36,296 bases of DNA, from positions 1-36,296 of IMG/VR virus record IMGVR_UViG_3300025033_000042; one strand, 5' to 3'. This stretch comes from a virus. Its lineage: Duplodnaviria > Caudoviricetes. The notes under the pieces were generated by a model, which was given only the letters and a program-made list of their open reading frames with translations, did not search any database and was not told the origin of the DNA. The translations under genes and the position numbers were made by a program. Positions 8,368-28,919 of the stretch are shown here, piece after piece; the stretch's first letter is position 1; each line of letters opens with the position of its first letter.

Positions 8368-8712
8368 CTACTGAGATTTTGCAAGCTCAGCTTCGTAAGT
8401 CCGGCGCCACTGCATATTCGTTTGGCAAGTAAATAGCTTGCCTTCGATACGCATAATATAAGCGGCAATGACACCTTCGCGATTGCGAACTGAGGCGATA
8501 TATTTTGTATGCTCATCCCGGGCTTGATTGACAGTGACCACACTAGCCCAGTCGATAACATGCTCGGCCGGGACGGCAGGACGTTCACCTGCCGCTTCGC
8601 ATACCAGCCGCTCCGGTGGAGTCGGCAGATGTTCCACAACCTTGTCGGGCCCGCAGCTACTCAGTAGCGAACAGGACATCGAAAGGGCTGCTACCAGTAG
8701 CAATCGCTTCAT
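8368..8712 (-). CDS. Outer-membrane spanin (Rz1-like lipoprotein)
   Basis: Signal peptide with LLSS-C lipobox, Pro-rich segment, overlaps upstream i-spanin. Confidence 0.75.
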   Translation of the reverse strand: MKRLLLVAALSMSCSLLSSCGPDKVVEHLPTPPERLVCEAAGERPAVPAEHVIDWASVVTVNQARDEHTKYIASVRNREGVIAAYIMRIEGKLFTCQTNMQWRRTYEAELAKSQ

Positions 8713-11916: not shown

Positions 11917-11943
11917 CTGACTGCTCCTTGTGCCTATGCAAAG

Positions 11944-16240: not shown

Positions 16241-16263
16241 TGACTGCTCCTTGCCCATGCTAC

Positions 16264-16292
16264 AGCGTAGCGGCCTAATTCTGATGTTGCAA
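16264..16292 (-). promoter_or_regulatory. Sigma70-like promoter
   Basis: TTGCAA-N17-TACGCT. Confidence 0.6.
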
Positions 16293-16505
16293 GCGACCTG
16301 TTCGCGTCCGACTCGTATGCCAATGACCACACTTGCCCTTGTAGGCGTGCATCGGAGTGCCACGATTGGTCGCTTTGCGTGCGGAGCGCATAGCGTCTAG
16401 CTCGTTGGCAAAGATCACCTTGTGGTCAACAGTGCAGCGCAGCCGCAGATCAGGCTTGCCCCACCAGCCTTCGCGGTCGACAGGGATATAGGTCTTAGCT
16501 TTCAC
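16275..16505 (-). CDS. Small hypothetical protein with possible Zn ligands
   Basis: GGAG RBS; C..K..F..A..AY..KCGHWH pattern. Confidence 0.65.
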   Translation of the reverse strand: MKAKTYIPVDREGWWGKPDLRLRCTVDHKVIFANELDAMRSARKATNRGTPMHAYKGKCGHWHTSRTRTGRLQHQN

Positions 16506-17684: not shown

Positions 17685-17710
17685 GTGACTGCTCCTTAAC
17701 TTGCAAGCTT

Positions 17711-17749
17711 ACAATAGCAGTTCCACGGACCCATGCAAGTGAAAAGTTC
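17711..17749 (-). promoter_or_regulatory. Promoter with upstream GAACTTTTC element
   Basis: GAACTTTTCAC-TTGCAT-N16-TATTGT; near-identical architecture at 28402-28440 (+). Confidence 0.65.
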
Positions 17750-17752
17750 GTG

Positions 17753-19077: not shown

Positions 19078-19330
19078 TGACCATCTCCATCATAATGCCG
19101 TGCGAAATCGGCTGCACCGAGGCAAACCGAGTCCCGAACGACGTGCTCCGGCTGACGGTCATTGCGGCGAGTCCCTTTATGCGTGCGCCGCGCTCCGTCG
19201 GCACCGAGCTGCACCCGTCCTCCTTGTTGTGGTCACCCACGAACTTCCGGGCGCGATCTGCACCCTCCTCGAACGAGCCCACAATGCAGACCTCGTCGTG
19301 GTGTTTGGTCTTCTGTCGGTATAAGAACAT
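19070..19330 (-). CDS. Hypothetical protein
   Basis: ATG 19330 after AAGGAGGCAGTCA. Confidence 0.7.
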   Translation of the reverse strand: MFLYRQKTKHHDEVCIVGSFEEGADRARKFVGDHNKEDGCSSVPTERGARIKGLAAMTVSRSTSFGTRFASVQPISHGIMMEMVNG

Positions 19331-19394
19331 TGACTGCCTCCTTGCAATACCCGAACAACGGGCGTTGCTATTGTATTGCACACGCCCGCCTGAT

Positions 19395-19613
19395 TTACAA
19401 GGGGCCTTTTACAGGTCGCCCGATTTCACGGTTTTCGGGGAGGGAGGCCGGTGATGACCACAGTCCAAGCTCACGACTGCCGTCAGTGTCCGTGCGGACC
19501 CTATGCAGGTTGGCAGCGTGGTGGATTAACTCGAGCGGAGTAATAGGTGCCCACTCCGCGTCTGGCTCATCGTCAACGAAGCTAAGACCCATGTAGCTCC
19601 AGGAAACTTGCAT
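19395..19613 (-). CDS. Hypothetical protein
   Basis: ATG 19613 with AAGGA RBS. Confidence 0.5.
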   Translation of the reverse strand: MQVSWSYMGLSFVDDEPDAEWAPITPLELIHHAANLHRVRTDTDGSRELGLWSSPASLPENREIGRPVKGPL

Positions 19614-19895
19614 ATAGAACGATCCTTTACTTAGATGCACGCTATAGCATAGCAGCGGCACACACTGGAGCACAAGCGGAACTGTTAGATGAAACTACTG
19701 TCTCGGGAGGGCCTACAGTATGAGCAACAGACGTTGTAGAGGAAAAACATACGCCAGCTGGATCACCTCGGGATGCCGGGCTCCGAGGCCCGAGAATTGA
19801 CATCCTAGCCCGAGGGCTCGGTCTTCGTCATGAAGGTGAGTGAGTCGTCCTGATCGCGCCCCAGCGGGCCTTGTATCGGCCTACAGCTAGTCATG

Positions 19896-20934: not shown

Positions 20935-20986
20935 GTTGACTTCCTTCTTGCTTGCATCCGGTCTAGCAGGTTGCTGCCGGTTCCCC

Positions 20987-21428: not shown

Positions 21429-21457
21429 TTGCAACAGGGGCCGGCCGGTGCTATACT
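21429..21457 (+). promoter_or_regulatory. Rightward sigma70-like promoter inside the control region
   Basis: TTGCAA-N17-TATACT. Confidence 0.6.
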
Positions 21458-21559: not shown

Positions 21560-21627
21560 TCATATCTGTTAAGGTTAACTCTCTCGAGCAAAAAATTAAC
21601 CCGATTCGGTGAAATCGGTCGAGGCCG

Positions 21628-21670
21628 CCCACCTACTATTTTTTGAATCCCCCACCTACTATTTTTTGAA
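21628..21670. repeat. Perfect 20-nt direct repeat, two copies
   Basis: CCCACCTACTATTTTTTGAA at 21628-21647 and 21651-21670. Confidence 0.95.
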
Positions 21671-21697
21671 CCGACTTGGTGCAGGCGGGACCCATCG

Positions 21698-21730
21698 AAA
21701 AGTGGGCCCGCCGGGGGTATGGCGGGCCCA
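21698..21730 (-). terminator. Terminator closing the candidate ncRNA
   Basis: TGGGCCCGCC-N8-GGCGGGCCCA then CTTTT. Confidence 0.65.
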
Positions 21731-21732
21731 TA

Positions 21733-22112
21733 GGTGCAAGCGGGCAGTCAACCCCTCTTGGCGCCACCGCATTGAGCTTAATGGCGCCTCACGGAGCGAA
21801 GGAGATACCCCGAGCGTCTGCAACTTATTGACGCATCCACCTGTCCATCCGGTGGATAGGCGCCCTGCCGATGGACAGCAGAGACGCCCACTGATGACCA
21901 CATGCCTACCGTGCCAAGCGCCTGTCAGCTGTGGCTTCAGCATTTGCCATTCGACTTACGTCTAGCGGCTGTTCAGTTCATTCTTCGCCACCAATGGATT
22001 ATCTGGTCAGGTCCCGCACTGGCACGGCTGTCTGATCCCACCCGATAGCGTCATACGAACTTGTAACCCCCTGCAGAGGTGTCCCCATCAACTACCGGAT
22101 TAACCAGCTTGC
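21733..22112 (-). ncRNA. Candidate ~380-nt structured non-coding RNA
   Basis: Bounded by promoter and terminator; nested 5'/3' helices with G-U pairs valid only on minus; GNRA loop; no convincing ORF. Confidence 0.65.
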
Positions 22113-22116
22113 CCTT

Positions 22117-22145
22117 ACAATAGGGAGCGCTTTCGGATGTTGCAA
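22117..22145 (-). promoter_or_regulatory. Promoter of the candidate ncRNA
   Basis: TTGCAA-N17-TATTGT; shares TTGCAACATC with the 16292 promoter. Confidence 0.65.
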
Positions 22146-22169
22146 GCACTTTCTTACGATAGAATAAAT

Positions 22170-22580
22170 CGTGCCAATTATCTGCCAATTTTCTCTAGAC
22201 ATATAGAACTCAGATATCATCCGAGGGAGGGGCGAACTGTATTAGGGGAGGGACCCTAACACAATACTGTCCGGGGCCCTGAAAACAGTATTTAGGTCGA
22301 CTTACTACACATCTATACAGTGAAAATAACACCTCCTTTACCCTATAGGGTATAGAAACAAAGAAACATAGATACCATTATAGTGAAAGTGGCACAATTT
22401 TGTGCCATCGGGGGGAGGACCCGAGAGCCACTTGTGCTGGTGCCAAGGGGTTTAGCGTTTTCGTGTTTTGCGTTTCACAGCATTACTGTATAGGGGGCCT
22501 CCCCTTAGCACAGTATTGTTCGCCCTCCCCCTACAGTATTGCCTGTTTCTGCTACATCGGACACTTCTATTGCCAATTTT
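22170..22580. repeat. Inverted-repeat and palindrome cluster around an AT-rich core (origin or packaging-site candidate)
   Basis: Mirror-image arms 22225-22292 and 22482-22540; palindromes TACCCTATAGGGTA (22339-22352) and TGGCACAA-tt-TTGTGCCA (22390-22407). Confidence 0.55.
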
Positions 22581-28392: not shown

Positions 28393-28401
28393 TTCGGAAG
28401 T

Positions 28402-28440
28402 GAACTTTTCGCTTGCATTGTGCGCCTGTGCGCCTATTAT
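28402..28440 (+). promoter_or_regulatory. Promoter with upstream GAACTTTTC element
   Basis: GAACTTTTCGC-TTGCAT-N16-TATTAT. Confidence 0.65.
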
Positions 28441-28472
28441 GGGTTGCACAATGCAAGCAAAGGAGCAGTCAA

Positions 28473-28919
28473 ATGGTAGATATATCTGAAGAGGTAGCTG
28501 TTACGCCGCAGGACCTCGTAACGTGGTTCAAGAAGAAAGCTCAGCTCGCTAAGCTGAAGGGCGAAGAAGCAATGCTTCGCTCGCGCATCTTCAAGCACTA
28601 CTTCCCGAACCCGACCGAGGGCTCGAAGGAAAACAAGGTTCCGTTGAACGACGGCACCGGCGCGATCCTCCAAGCGGATCACGTTATCAACCGCACGGTT
28701 GATGAGCAGCAGCTTGAGGGACTCAAGGAGGCAATGTTCGCCGAGGGTTCCAATCTGCCGCAACTGGACCTCACCAAGCTCATTCGGTGGAAGCCCGAGC
28801 TCAACAAGGCGGAGTATAACAAGCTCACTGCCGACGAGAAGCTGGTGTTCGATCGCTGCTTGATCATCAAGCCGGGTTCCCCGCAGATGGAGATCAAGAT
28901 CCCCAAGACTCCGCAATGA
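28473..28919 (+). CDS. Hypothetical phage replication-module protein
   Basis: ATG 28473 after AAGGAGCAGTCA; LIRWKPEL..IKPGSPQMEI. Confidence 0.8.
   Translation: MVDISEEVAVTPQDLVTWFKKKAQLAKLKGEEAMLRSRIFKHYFPNPTEGSKENKVPLNDGTGAILQADHVINRTVDEQQLEGLKEAMFAEGSNLPQLDLTKLIRWKPELNKAEYNKLTADEKLVFDRCLIIKPGSPQMEIKIPKTPQ

What the first reader, a model, noticed from the sequence alone, without database searches (positions are those of the whole stretch)
21735..21751. ncRNA 3' segment is antisense to the RBS leader shared by several phage genes
Seen: plus 21735-21751 reads TGCAAGCGGGCAGTCAA, so the minus RNA carries UUGACUGCCCGCUUGCA. The leader of gene 19330 (19346-19330) is TGCAAGGAGGCAGTCAA, 15/17 identical, covering the Shine-Dalgarno and the A of AUG. 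Other leaders keep both flanks around the SD: TGCAAGC-aaagga-GCAGTCAA (28452-28472), TGCAAG-ttaagga-GCAGTCA (before 17684) and TGCAAGC-aagaagga-AGTCAAC (20956-20935). The GCAGTCA half also precedes 11916 and 16240. In the folded RNA this segment is masked by the RNA's own 5' end (GCAAGCUGGUUAAUCC), which resembles the leader. Inference: a switchable trans-acting antisense RNA that co-regulates translation of operon-leading genes on both arms. An alternative is that the motif is a protein-binding site and the RNA locus is a decoy.
Basis: partly seen in the sequence, partly recalled or inferred. Interest (0 to 1): 0.85.

Follow-up and report, generated by a model that had tools for sequence, protein, structure and literature searches.

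The report
Large phage RNA mirroring ribosome-binding leaders
This phage carries a conserved gene for a predicted 415-base folded RNA that matches no Rfam family, whose tail is complementary to the ribosome-binding leaders of the first genes of several of its own operons and changes in step with one of those leaders across related phages, so it likely switches such genes off by base-pairing.

Summary
Observation confirmed and extended. The segment is the 3' module of a predicted ~415-nt RNA (minus strand, ~22113-21697) between the two arms of a Queuovirinae-like phage. The RNA has a promoter, a terminator and a pseudoknot core with strong covariation (30 distinct cores; 11 of 14 pairs compensatory); no Rfam match. 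In 13 related phages the segment pairs better with the same phage's leader of gene 20934 than with the others' (-3.5 kcal/mol, p=5e-5). The AGUCA flank occurs in leaders almost only where the RNA has UGACU (10/129 against 1/522). Best reading: a trans-acting antisense repressor of promoter-proximal genes (0.55). Caveats: many motif leaders also pair in cis with their own -35 region, which explains the GCAAG half without the RNA. Only that half is masked by the RNA's 5' end, and masking is not conserved. Multi-target binding is strong here and in the closest relative but weak in the MMDA13 group. Distant members lack the module. Expression evidence is one unstranded metatranscriptome contig.

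The parts
22117..22145 (-). Predicted promoter of the RNA: TTGCAA, 17 nt, TATTGT; start predicted at about 22113-22110
   Evidence: Sequence; a TTG(C/T)(G/A)A-N16-18 -10-like element stands at the same place in 14 of 14 homologues of the alphaproteobacterial-type group
21697..22113 (-). Predicted ~415-nt structured non-coding RNA
   Evidence: Fold z=-3.8, 0 of 100 shuffles as stable; homologues; UUCG/GNRA-type loops read on this strand in homologues; one RNA-library contig inside it
21990..22032 (-). Conserved pseudoknot core: a bulged stem, its 7-nt loop paired downstream, an A-rich joining strand
   Evidence: 30 distinct cores: 97.4% of cells paired, 11 of 14 pairs compensatory, 0 of 500 shuffles; 12-sequence version
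21742..21755 (-). Small GGGG..GCCC hairpin that displays UGACU (complement of AGUCA) in its loop
   Evidence: Constrained fold; a GGG..CC hairpin at this place in most homologues
21735..21751 (-). The finding: anti-leader segment UUGACUGCCCGCUUGCA
21729..21734 (-). Extension CCUAUG, complementary to CAUAGG (leader 11916) and, with one G-U pair, CAUGGG (leader 16240)
   Evidence: Sequence; duplexes
21697..21730 (-). Terminator-like hairpin and U tract
   Evidence: a hairpin at this place in 14 of 14 group homologues
19330..19346 (-). Predicted target leader of gene 19330 (best duplex); also the 3' arm of a cis hairpin over its promoter region
   Evidence: (rank 1 of 52)
20935..20956 (-). Predicted target leader of gene 20934 (conserved unknown protein, phrog_21588, three-helix C-terminal domain); no long cis arm; co-varies with the RNA
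28452..28472 (+). Predicted target leader of gene 28473 (DUF7173) on the other arm and strand
   Evidence: rank 2 of 52
28411..28458 (+). Perfect 13-bp inverted repeat (28411-28423 / 28446-28458) between the -35 region and the leader, -10 box TATTAT (28435) in the loop; predicted to hide the SD in read-through mRNA
   Evidence: compensated in G001; z=-4.4
17685..17705 (-). Predicted target leader of gene 17684 (DUF2786/DUF7168)
   Evidence: rank 6 of 52
11917..11938 (-). Predicted target leader of the UvrD-like helicase gene 11916
   Evidence: rank 5 of 52
16241..16259 (-). Predicted target leader of gene 16240
   Evidence: (duplex -30.7 kcal/mol)
21429..21457 (+). Conserved promoter-like site facing the RNA gene (convergent)
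   Evidence: 91% identical in L003; similar site in MMDA13 and L006
21005..21559 (.). Three CtrA-type boxes TTAA-N7-TTAA (21005, 21133, 21545); the first lies just upstream of the TATAAT (20992) of gene 20934
   Evidence: motif as given in PMC9437464

Best explanation
The locus is a conserved phage gene for a predicted ~415-nt folded RNA with a pseudoknot core, and its 3' module is complementary to the ribosome-binding leaders of promoter-proximal phage genes, so it likely pairs with them in trans and blocks their translation. Shown by sequence comparison: promoter- and terminator-like boundaries, the covarying core, complementarity to six leaders in this window on both arms, and co-evolution of the module with the leader of gene 20934 across 13 phages. 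Inferred: the RNA is made from a host-type promoter and accumulates; the loop UGACU nucleates on AGUCA just before the start codon; the duplex extends over the Shine-Dalgarno and displaces the RNA's own 5' GCAAGC. Many of these genes also appear silenced in cis in read-through mRNA by a hairpin whose 5' arm is their own -35 region, as in T4 genes e and soc. Transcripts from the internal promoter lack that arm, and the RNA would supply it in trans, acting as an off-switch for the heads of early/middle operons. The job of the core is not shown; most likely it is a scaffold or protein-binding module that predates the antisense module.
For: Motif 5 vs 0.17 expected. Core: 11 of 14 pairs compensatory in 30 cores. 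Of about 920 RNA words, the one most enriched in start regions lies in the segment in 5 of 6 group genomes (second in the 20-kb G003), and the word differs by genome: TGACTGC here, CCTTGCTA in G001, TCCTTTG(C) in G002, G008 and MMDA13. Cognate vs non-cognate pairing with the gene-20934 leader, 13 phages: -3.5 kcal/mol, p=5e-5; MMDA13-like group alone p=0.005 (11) and 0.004 (8 distinct leaders). Private matches: L094 AUAUGA/UUAUAU; L119 and L105 gain 2 nt in both RNA and leader; L099 GUGC/GCAC; G003 and G008 UAUGGGC/GCCCAUA. AGUCA before starts 10 of 129 in the two UGACU phages vs 1 of 522 in seven others. Net binding after refolding ranks motif leaders 1,2,6,7,12,13 of 59 here and 1,2,4,5,7,9 of 85 in G001. 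24 of 25 motif leaders follow a gap of 45 nt or more vs 122 of 363 others. Orthologous leaders of phages without the module mostly lack the flanks. One 200-nt RNA-library contig lies wholly inside the RNA.
Against: 13 of 20 non-20934 motif leaders sit in strong cis hairpins (z<-2; 10% of 364 others), so their GCAA(G/A) flank has a cause without the RNA. In the MMDA13 group net binding is weak (ranks 5,11,23,30,39 of 94 in G002; 4,16,20,47,74 of 89 in G008; 2,7,15,22 of 86 in MMDA13), and the enriched word there contains the SD itself. A composition-blind energy scan put the segment first in only 1 of 11 genomes. The cognate leader ranks first for 6 of 13 RNAs. The strand test does not favour this orientation: true better than mirror in 1 of 13. 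One of 25 control windows also gave p=0.0003. The 13 phages are related and the tree is largely unresolved, so p-values overstate independence; the AGUCA contrast rests on two related genomes. Five genomes of other groups show no leader match. No stranded expression data and no experiment.
Confidence: 0.55

Rival explanations
1. Pairing is real but essentially single-target: the RNA regulates gene 20934 (its neighbour 0.8-1.6 kb downstream), and the other leaders match only because their promoter hairpins force a similar flank.
For: Detailed co-evolution was tested only for this leader. It lacks the long cis arm. Other motif leaders have cis hairpins (13 of 20) and bind weakly in the MMDA13 group.
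Against: Here and in G001, five leaders each carry AGUCA, which cis arms pair only partly, and they rank at the top for net binding. MMDA13-group promoters carry GAC/GAAC-TTT arms without AGUCA in their leaders. In this window 19330 and 28473 bind better than 20934.
Confidence: 0.17
2. By-product: the -35 box (CTTGC) forces GCAA(G) into the start of many transcripts, the RNA's own included, and the RNA's 3' end pairs with its own 5' end; the match to leaders follows with no trans pairing.
For: Promoter inverted repeats. GCAA/UUGC can pair in 13 of 14 RNAs. P=1.0 for that stem here. Strand test inconclusive.
Against: It does not explain the loop half, which is unpaired in the RNA and tracks the leaders letter by letter. 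The closing stem reaches P>=0.5 in only 4 of 14 RNAs and has no compensatory change.
Confidence: 0.1
3. The direction is reversed: the leaders are signals that bind the RNA and switch its fold, termination or activity (sponge or trans anti-termination), and the core has the real job.
For: Complementarity runs into the 5' arm of the terminator in G003, G008, MMDA13, L122 and L134. The core is conserved in phages that lack the module.
Against: The duplex covers the SD and the region before the start codon in every case shown, which would still block ribosomes. The terminator-arm match is lost in L112, and part of it is GC-rich hairpin similarity.
Confidence: 0.1
4. The motif is a binding site for a phage protein (RNA or DNA level) and the RNA locus, read on the plus strand from the convergent promoter at 21429-21457, is a decoy or the leader of a small antisense ORF.
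For: A conserved convergent promoter. ATG/TTG stands 20-23 nt after GCAA on the plus strand in 14 of 14.
Against: The ORFs run 5-92 aa with no shared frame or length. The SD is degraded here. Spacing between the flanks varies from 2 to 8 nt. Lineage-private letters co-vary.
Confidence: 0.05
5. The RNA is a replication primer or other origin element of the central gap, and the match is incidental.
For: It lies in the divergent gap next to repeats (21628-21670), and the phage encodes RNase H and a primase.
Against: It has a terminator hairpin; in the NP1 group it is followed directly by a gene; this reading does not account for the covariation with leaders.
Confidence: 0.03

Closest known systems
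c4 antisense RNA of phages P1/P7 (77 nt, trans; passages of review PMC12197685)
   Same: Phage RNA encoded apart from its target, pairing around the ribosome-binding site through sequences displayed in loops; RNA and target specificity differ together between related phages.
   Different: This RNA is five times longer, has a pseudoknot core, gives no Rfam match, and is predicted to hit several operon heads on both arms rather than one antirepressor mRNA.
Start-Associated Sequences (SAS) of Cluster K mycobacteriophages (passages of PMC3203893)
   Same: A repeated, oriented motif over the SD of non-structural genes, with one copy in the opposite orientation not linked to a gene start; the authors left open whether an RNA or protein binds it.
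   Different: Different sequence and phage group. Here the reversed copy is shown to lie in a conserved structured RNA and to co-vary with a leader; the motif has two flanks with variable spacing.
Cis RBS-sequestering hairpins of T4 genes e, soc, 49, I-TevI (passages of PMC3014915)
   Same: A promoter lies in the 5' arm, so read-through mRNA hides the SD and the internal transcript does not; the same architecture is predicted for many motif leaders here.
   Different: T4 uses late promoters, and that review states no trans-acting small RNA had been characterised in T4; here a separate RNA carries a copy of the anti-RBS arm.
Large structured phage/bacterial RNAs such as GOLLD and ROOL (search listing and start of abstract of 10.1101/2024.12.08.627333)
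   Same: Long, highly structured RNA with a covarying core.
   Different: No Rfam match; much of this RNA is variable hairpins, and it has an mRNA-complementary module.
tmRNA
   Same: Similar length and a pseudoknot in the 5' third (resemblance recalled, not from a call).
   Different: ARAGORN finds none in 7 loci; no tRNA-like ends or conserved tag frame were seen.

Membership tests
C4 antisense RNA family | Match to the Rfam C4 models | tested here: not met
   No such match in the window, in 21600-22200 at E<=10, in the MMDA13 RNA region or in five loci at gathering score
C4 antisense RNA family | About 77 nt, upstream of an antirepressor operon | tested here: not met
   About 415 nt; no antirepressor among 55 proteins scanned against PHROGs
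Trans-encoded base-pairing sRNA (mode of action) | Own promoter and terminator, encoded apart from targets | tested here: met
   Predicted elements conserved in 14 of 14 group homologues; target 28473 lies on the other strand
Trans-encoded base-pairing sRNA (mode of action) | Imperfect complementarity over the ribosome-binding site that co-varies with the target | tested here: met
Trans-encoded base-pairing sRNA (mode of action) | Transcript exists on the predicted strand | tested here: inconclusive
   One unstranded 200-nt contig in one RNA run
Trans-encoded base-pairing sRNA (mode of action) | Represses target translation by pairing; chaperone dependence | not testable with these tools
   Needs reporters and toeprinting
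tmRNA | tRNA-like domain and tag reading frame | tested here: not met
   ARAGORN 0 genes in 7 loci; no Rfam match
Known riboswitches and ribozymes in Rfam 15 | Covariance-model match | tested here: not met
   (only weak chance-level rows)
SAS of Cluster K mycobacteriophages | Oriented repeat over the SD with a lone reversed copy | tested here: met
   Architecture met; compared with PMC3203893
SAS of Cluster K mycobacteriophages | The 13-bp SAS consensus | tested here: not met
   By inspection the leaders here differ from the consensus quoted
T4-type cis RBS-sequestering leaders | Hairpin whose 5' arm holds the gene's promoter and whose 3' arm holds the RBS flank | tested here: met
   13 of 20 motif leaders z<-2 vs 10% of 364 others; folds; in this window 2 of 4 scored

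The most novel reading that the evidence does not exclude
The pseudoknot core is an ancient functional module (catalytic, or a protein or ribosome dock) of Queuovirinae-like phages, and the Sphingomonas-type lineage has joined to it a retargetable guide that reads SD flanks and possibly the AUG itself. The RNA would then be a guided ribonucleoprotein or ribozyme that actively shuts down or cuts a whole class of operon-leading mRNAs, supplying in trans the anti-RBS arm that the same genes use in cis.
Probability: 0.12. Interest if true: 0.92.

Novelty: new variant of a known kind. Interest (0 to 1): 0.74.

Why it matters
Trans-acting RNAs by which phages regulate their own genes are known from few cases, and SAS-type leader motifs have lacked a demonstrated binding partner. 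This is an RNA family with no Rfam match, with a well-supported core and a natural compensatory-mutation series between RNA and target. It is present in cultured phages: MMDA13 has the module, the NP1 group lacks it. That makes 'one RNA controls a class of phage genes' directly testable. It also points to a two-layer design (cis promoter hairpins plus a trans copy of the arm) and to a conserved pseudoknot of unknown function in the central gap of these phages.

Tried and rejected
Exact-word scans gave chance hits in coding DNA that were dropped: L039 and L041-L044. Of the 64 collection hits of the core pattern (17 viral, 43 metagenome, 4 genome), those failing the stem or pseudoknot check were dropped (e.g. 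L103, L106-108, L111, L118, L120, L123, L135, L137, L139, L140, whose output was cut); 30 distinct cores remained, counting earlier loci. From the covariation test L102 was left out (locus too short to hold the leader), and L113/L132 and L096/L124/L126 as duplicates of L119 and of the window. blastn of the RNA against named phages finds nothing beyond itself; the NP1 RNA finds only its own group. Covariance models found no core in 17 and 33 more distant loci; these are partial loci, so this is not proof of absence. GUGGUCAU as an anti-start-codon site: not accepted, because TGTGGTCA is very common in these genomes and is paired in a hairpin. A leader match in non-group RNAs: none; the G006 hint fell on inspection; the NP1-group U tract matches the ribonucleotide-reductase leader over 7-10 nt, but the leader stays fixed while the tail varies. 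The G-U strand test was uninformative. The segment as a promoter: no -10 box follows it (sequence). Gene 20934 protein: no Pfam hit above cut-off, no fold match at E<=0.001, only weak LexA/homeodomain-like rows, unnamed Atlas clusters. Lack of RNA-run cover elsewhere in 1-25000 is not used as evidence. Paper searches found no description of this RNA; one search was uninformative. PMC7472734 (passages) and PMC9437464 (passages) describe the MMDA13 gap with repeats, promoters and CtrA sites but no RNA in the passages seen. The alignments of PMC10690425 could not be read (three of six supplementary files searched, no core word found), so the core may be among its unnamed candidates.

Full report
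Setting. The window is a 62%-complete virus record with head genes, a UvrD helicase and small genes on the minus arm and primase, RNase H, thymidylate synthase, ligase, Sak4 and SSB on the plus arm. Its primase is 73% identical to Sphingomonas phage MMDA13 and 56% to NP1-group phages (NP1 is filed under Queuovirinae). Three TTAA-N7-TTAA boxes in the central gap match the CtrA motif described for MMDA13 in PMC9437464 (passages), so the host is inferred to be an alphaproteobacterium.

The observation. All coordinates and matches check out. The two-flank motif occurs 5 times against 0.17 expected; four copies precede start codons and the fifth is the segment. The half-motif GCAGTCA is only marginally enriched overall (12 vs 6.4).

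There is a conserved structured RNA gene. On the minus strand a TTGCAA-17-TATTGT element (22145-22117) precedes about 415 nt that fold better than all 100 shuffles (z=-3.8) and end in a terminator-like hairpin. Homologues lie at the same place in L003, MMDA13, L004, L006, the NP1 group and more distant phages. A degenerate core pattern gave 17 viral, 43 metagenome and 4 genome hits; after a structure filter and with earlier loci, 30 distinct cores remained. They form a pseudoknot with 97.4% of cells paired and 11 of 14 pairs compensatory; no shuffle and no slid register comes close. The stem pairs and conserved letters were part of the search and filter, so the 30-row figures lean towards the structure; the 12 cores found by sequence profiles alone give the same answer (10 of 13 pairs). 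Rfam and ARAGORN find nothing relevant. One RNA-library run holds three short contigs in window 1-25000; one (21899-22098, no differences) lies wholly inside the RNA. Contigs show neither strand nor level, so this is a weak hint.

The segment tracks the leaders. In the MMDA13 group the segment reads UCCUUUGC and the orthologous leaders read GCAAAGGA; in MMDA13 that word occurs 4 times in the 39.5 kb examined, three at leaders and one in the RNA. Using whole records and a simple gene caller, the RNA word most enriched in start regions lies in the segment in 5 of 6 group genomes and second in the sixth; five genomes of other groups show no such word (best p=2.9e-4 among about 920 words). For gene 20934, which lies in the same locus as the RNA, 13 RNA-leader pairs could be compared. 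Cognate pairs are 3.5 kcal/mol better than expected (p=5e-5, the floor of 20,000 permutations), also within the MMDA13-like group (p=0.005; 0.004 for 8 distinct leaders); 1 of 25 non-overlapping control windows reached p<0.01. The matches include letters private to a lineage: AUAUGA against UUAUAU in L094, a 2-nt gain on both sides in L105 and L119, UAUGGGC against GCCCAUA in G003 and G008. AGUCA before a start is found in 10 of 129 starts of the two UGACU phages and 1 of 522 starts of seven others. With the longer 3' region, five motif leaders take ranks 1, 2, 3, 5 and 6 of 52 here (16240 fell below the score cut-off of that run) and six take ranks 1, 2, 3, 6, 7 and 8 of 77 in G001. Motif leaders are operon heads: 24 of 25 follow a gap of 45 nt or more, against 122 of 363 others.

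Results against. A plain energy scan puts the segment first in 1 of 11 genomes. After refolding costs, motif leaders rank high here (1,2,6,7,12,13 of 59) and in G001 (1,2,4,5,7,9 of 85) but not in G002, G008 or MMDA13, where the anti-SD part sits in a small hairpin. The cognate leader is best for 6 of 13 RNAs, and G-U content does not tell which strand pairs. The phages are related and their tree is mostly unresolved, so the p-values overstate independence.

The GCAAG flank of many leaders is the 3' arm of an inverted repeat whose 5' arm is the gene's own -35 region, with the -10 box in the loop. At 28473 it is a perfect 13-bp repeat (28411-28423 / 28446-28458), compensated in G001; helicase leaders show G-U against A-U changes. 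13 of 20 such leaders fold at z<-2 against 10% of 364 others. This is the architecture reported for T4 genes e, soc, 49 and I-TevI, where read-through mRNA hides the SD and transcripts from the internal promoter do not (PMC3014915, passages). It explains the upstream half of the shared motif without the RNA. It does not explain the gene-20934 leaders, which lack the long arm, nor the AGUCA half. On masking: with the core fixed, only GCUUGC pairs with the 5' end and UGACU is open in a loop; such masking reaches P>=0.5 in 4 of 14 RNAs, although GCAA/UUGC can pair in 13 of 14, without compensatory change.

Mechanism. Most likely (0.55) the RNA represses translation of promoter-proximal genes in trans: loop contact at AGUCA, extension over the SD, displacement of its own 5' end. 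These steps are inferred; complementarity and co-evolution are shown. It would supply the anti-RBS arm that internal transcripts lack and so close the window of expression of these genes. The targets are a helicase, DUF7173, DUF2786 and unknown proteins; the best-conserved one, gene 20934, has a confident three-helix C-terminal domain without a significant fold match and a CtrA-type box just upstream of its -10 site. A link to CtrA-timed development is a guess. Rivals: single target (0.17), by-product (0.10), leaders acting on the RNA (0.10), protein decoy or antisense ORF (0.05; ORFs 5-92 aa, unconserved), primer RNA (0.03).

Comparison. It works like c4 of P1/P7 (PMC12197685, passages) but is not a member; the layout resembles the SAS motifs of Cluster K mycobacteriophages with their lone reversed copy (PMC3203893, passages). 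ONT-cappable-seq of six Pseudomonas phages lists ncRNA candidates but no phage of this group (10.1101/2023.10.13.562163, passages). Earlier notes of this scan report similar anti-RBS RNAs in unrelated phages; these are unchecked leads, not support, but they suggest the theme is recurrent, which lowers uniqueness. No note covers this sequence. Ten paper searches found no description; the alignment files of PMC10690425 could not be read, so the core may already be an unnamed candidate there.

Verdict. Real feature, RNA family without an Rfam match, unusually good comparative evidence for trans pairing with at least one leader, good evidence for several targets in this sub-lineage. New variant of a known kind; interest 0.74.

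Noticed in passing
window 28411-28458, 19330-19402, 16241-16293; G001, G002, G008 and MMDA13 promoters: Early/middle promoters are enclosed in long inverted repeats (-35 region against leader, -10 in the loop) with compensatory and G-U changes; also seen before MMDA13 genes that lack the motif. A general cis control, or a DNA hairpin feature, of this phage group.
   Followed up: partly
window 28393-28417, 17731-17750; G002, G008, MMDA13 promoters: A recurring element (T)GA(A)CTTT(T)C-GCTTGC just upstream of and over the -35 box; could be an activator box. The window's segment resembles it in the same sense.
   Followed up: no
whole window and relatives: TGTGGTCA is strongly over-represented on both strands (20 or more copies in 36 kb; TGGTCA/TGACCA 36 times), mostly inside genes.
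   Followed up: no
window 21628-21670: Two exact copies of CCCACCTACTATTTTTTGAA, near-identical in L003, one similar copy in L105, just past the RNA terminator, followed by a conserved GACCGATTT.
   Followed up: no
window 22220-22545 and 19696-19720: G-rich/C-rich inverted repeats (AGGGGAGGG.. / ..CCCTCCCC, TACAGTA motifs) in the gap, conserved in L003; possible origin or packaging signals.
   Followed up: no
window 21756-21874: In runs X23 and X20 this 117-nt stretch of variable hairpins is replaced by diverged sequence of the same length, the swap ending at the edge of the segment hairpin.
   Followed up: no
L049 ~8500-8530, L014, L017, L015, L087, L114: In NP1-group and other distant RNAs the last hairpin has a conserved loop CUGGUG(C), and the RNA is followed directly by a variable gene.
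   Followed up: partly
window ~21965-21980 (minus) and MMDA13-group homologues: A tiny AUG-(UUG)-AAC-stop follows the pseudoknot in several group RNAs but not in all.
   Followed up: no
base of the hairpin before the segment (window ~21758-21761, minus): An invariant CA (CAU in 12 of 14) lies 20-23 nt 5' of UUGC and could pair with the AUG of a bound leader; no covariation to test it.
   Followed up: partly
L125 ~480-620 nt downstream region of the core: A core homologue is followed by tRNA-like sequences.
   Followed up: no
L011 (orthologues of 28473 and 20934): Leaders carry GCAAAGGA / CACAAGGA although no RNA core was found in this partial locus.
   Followed up: partly
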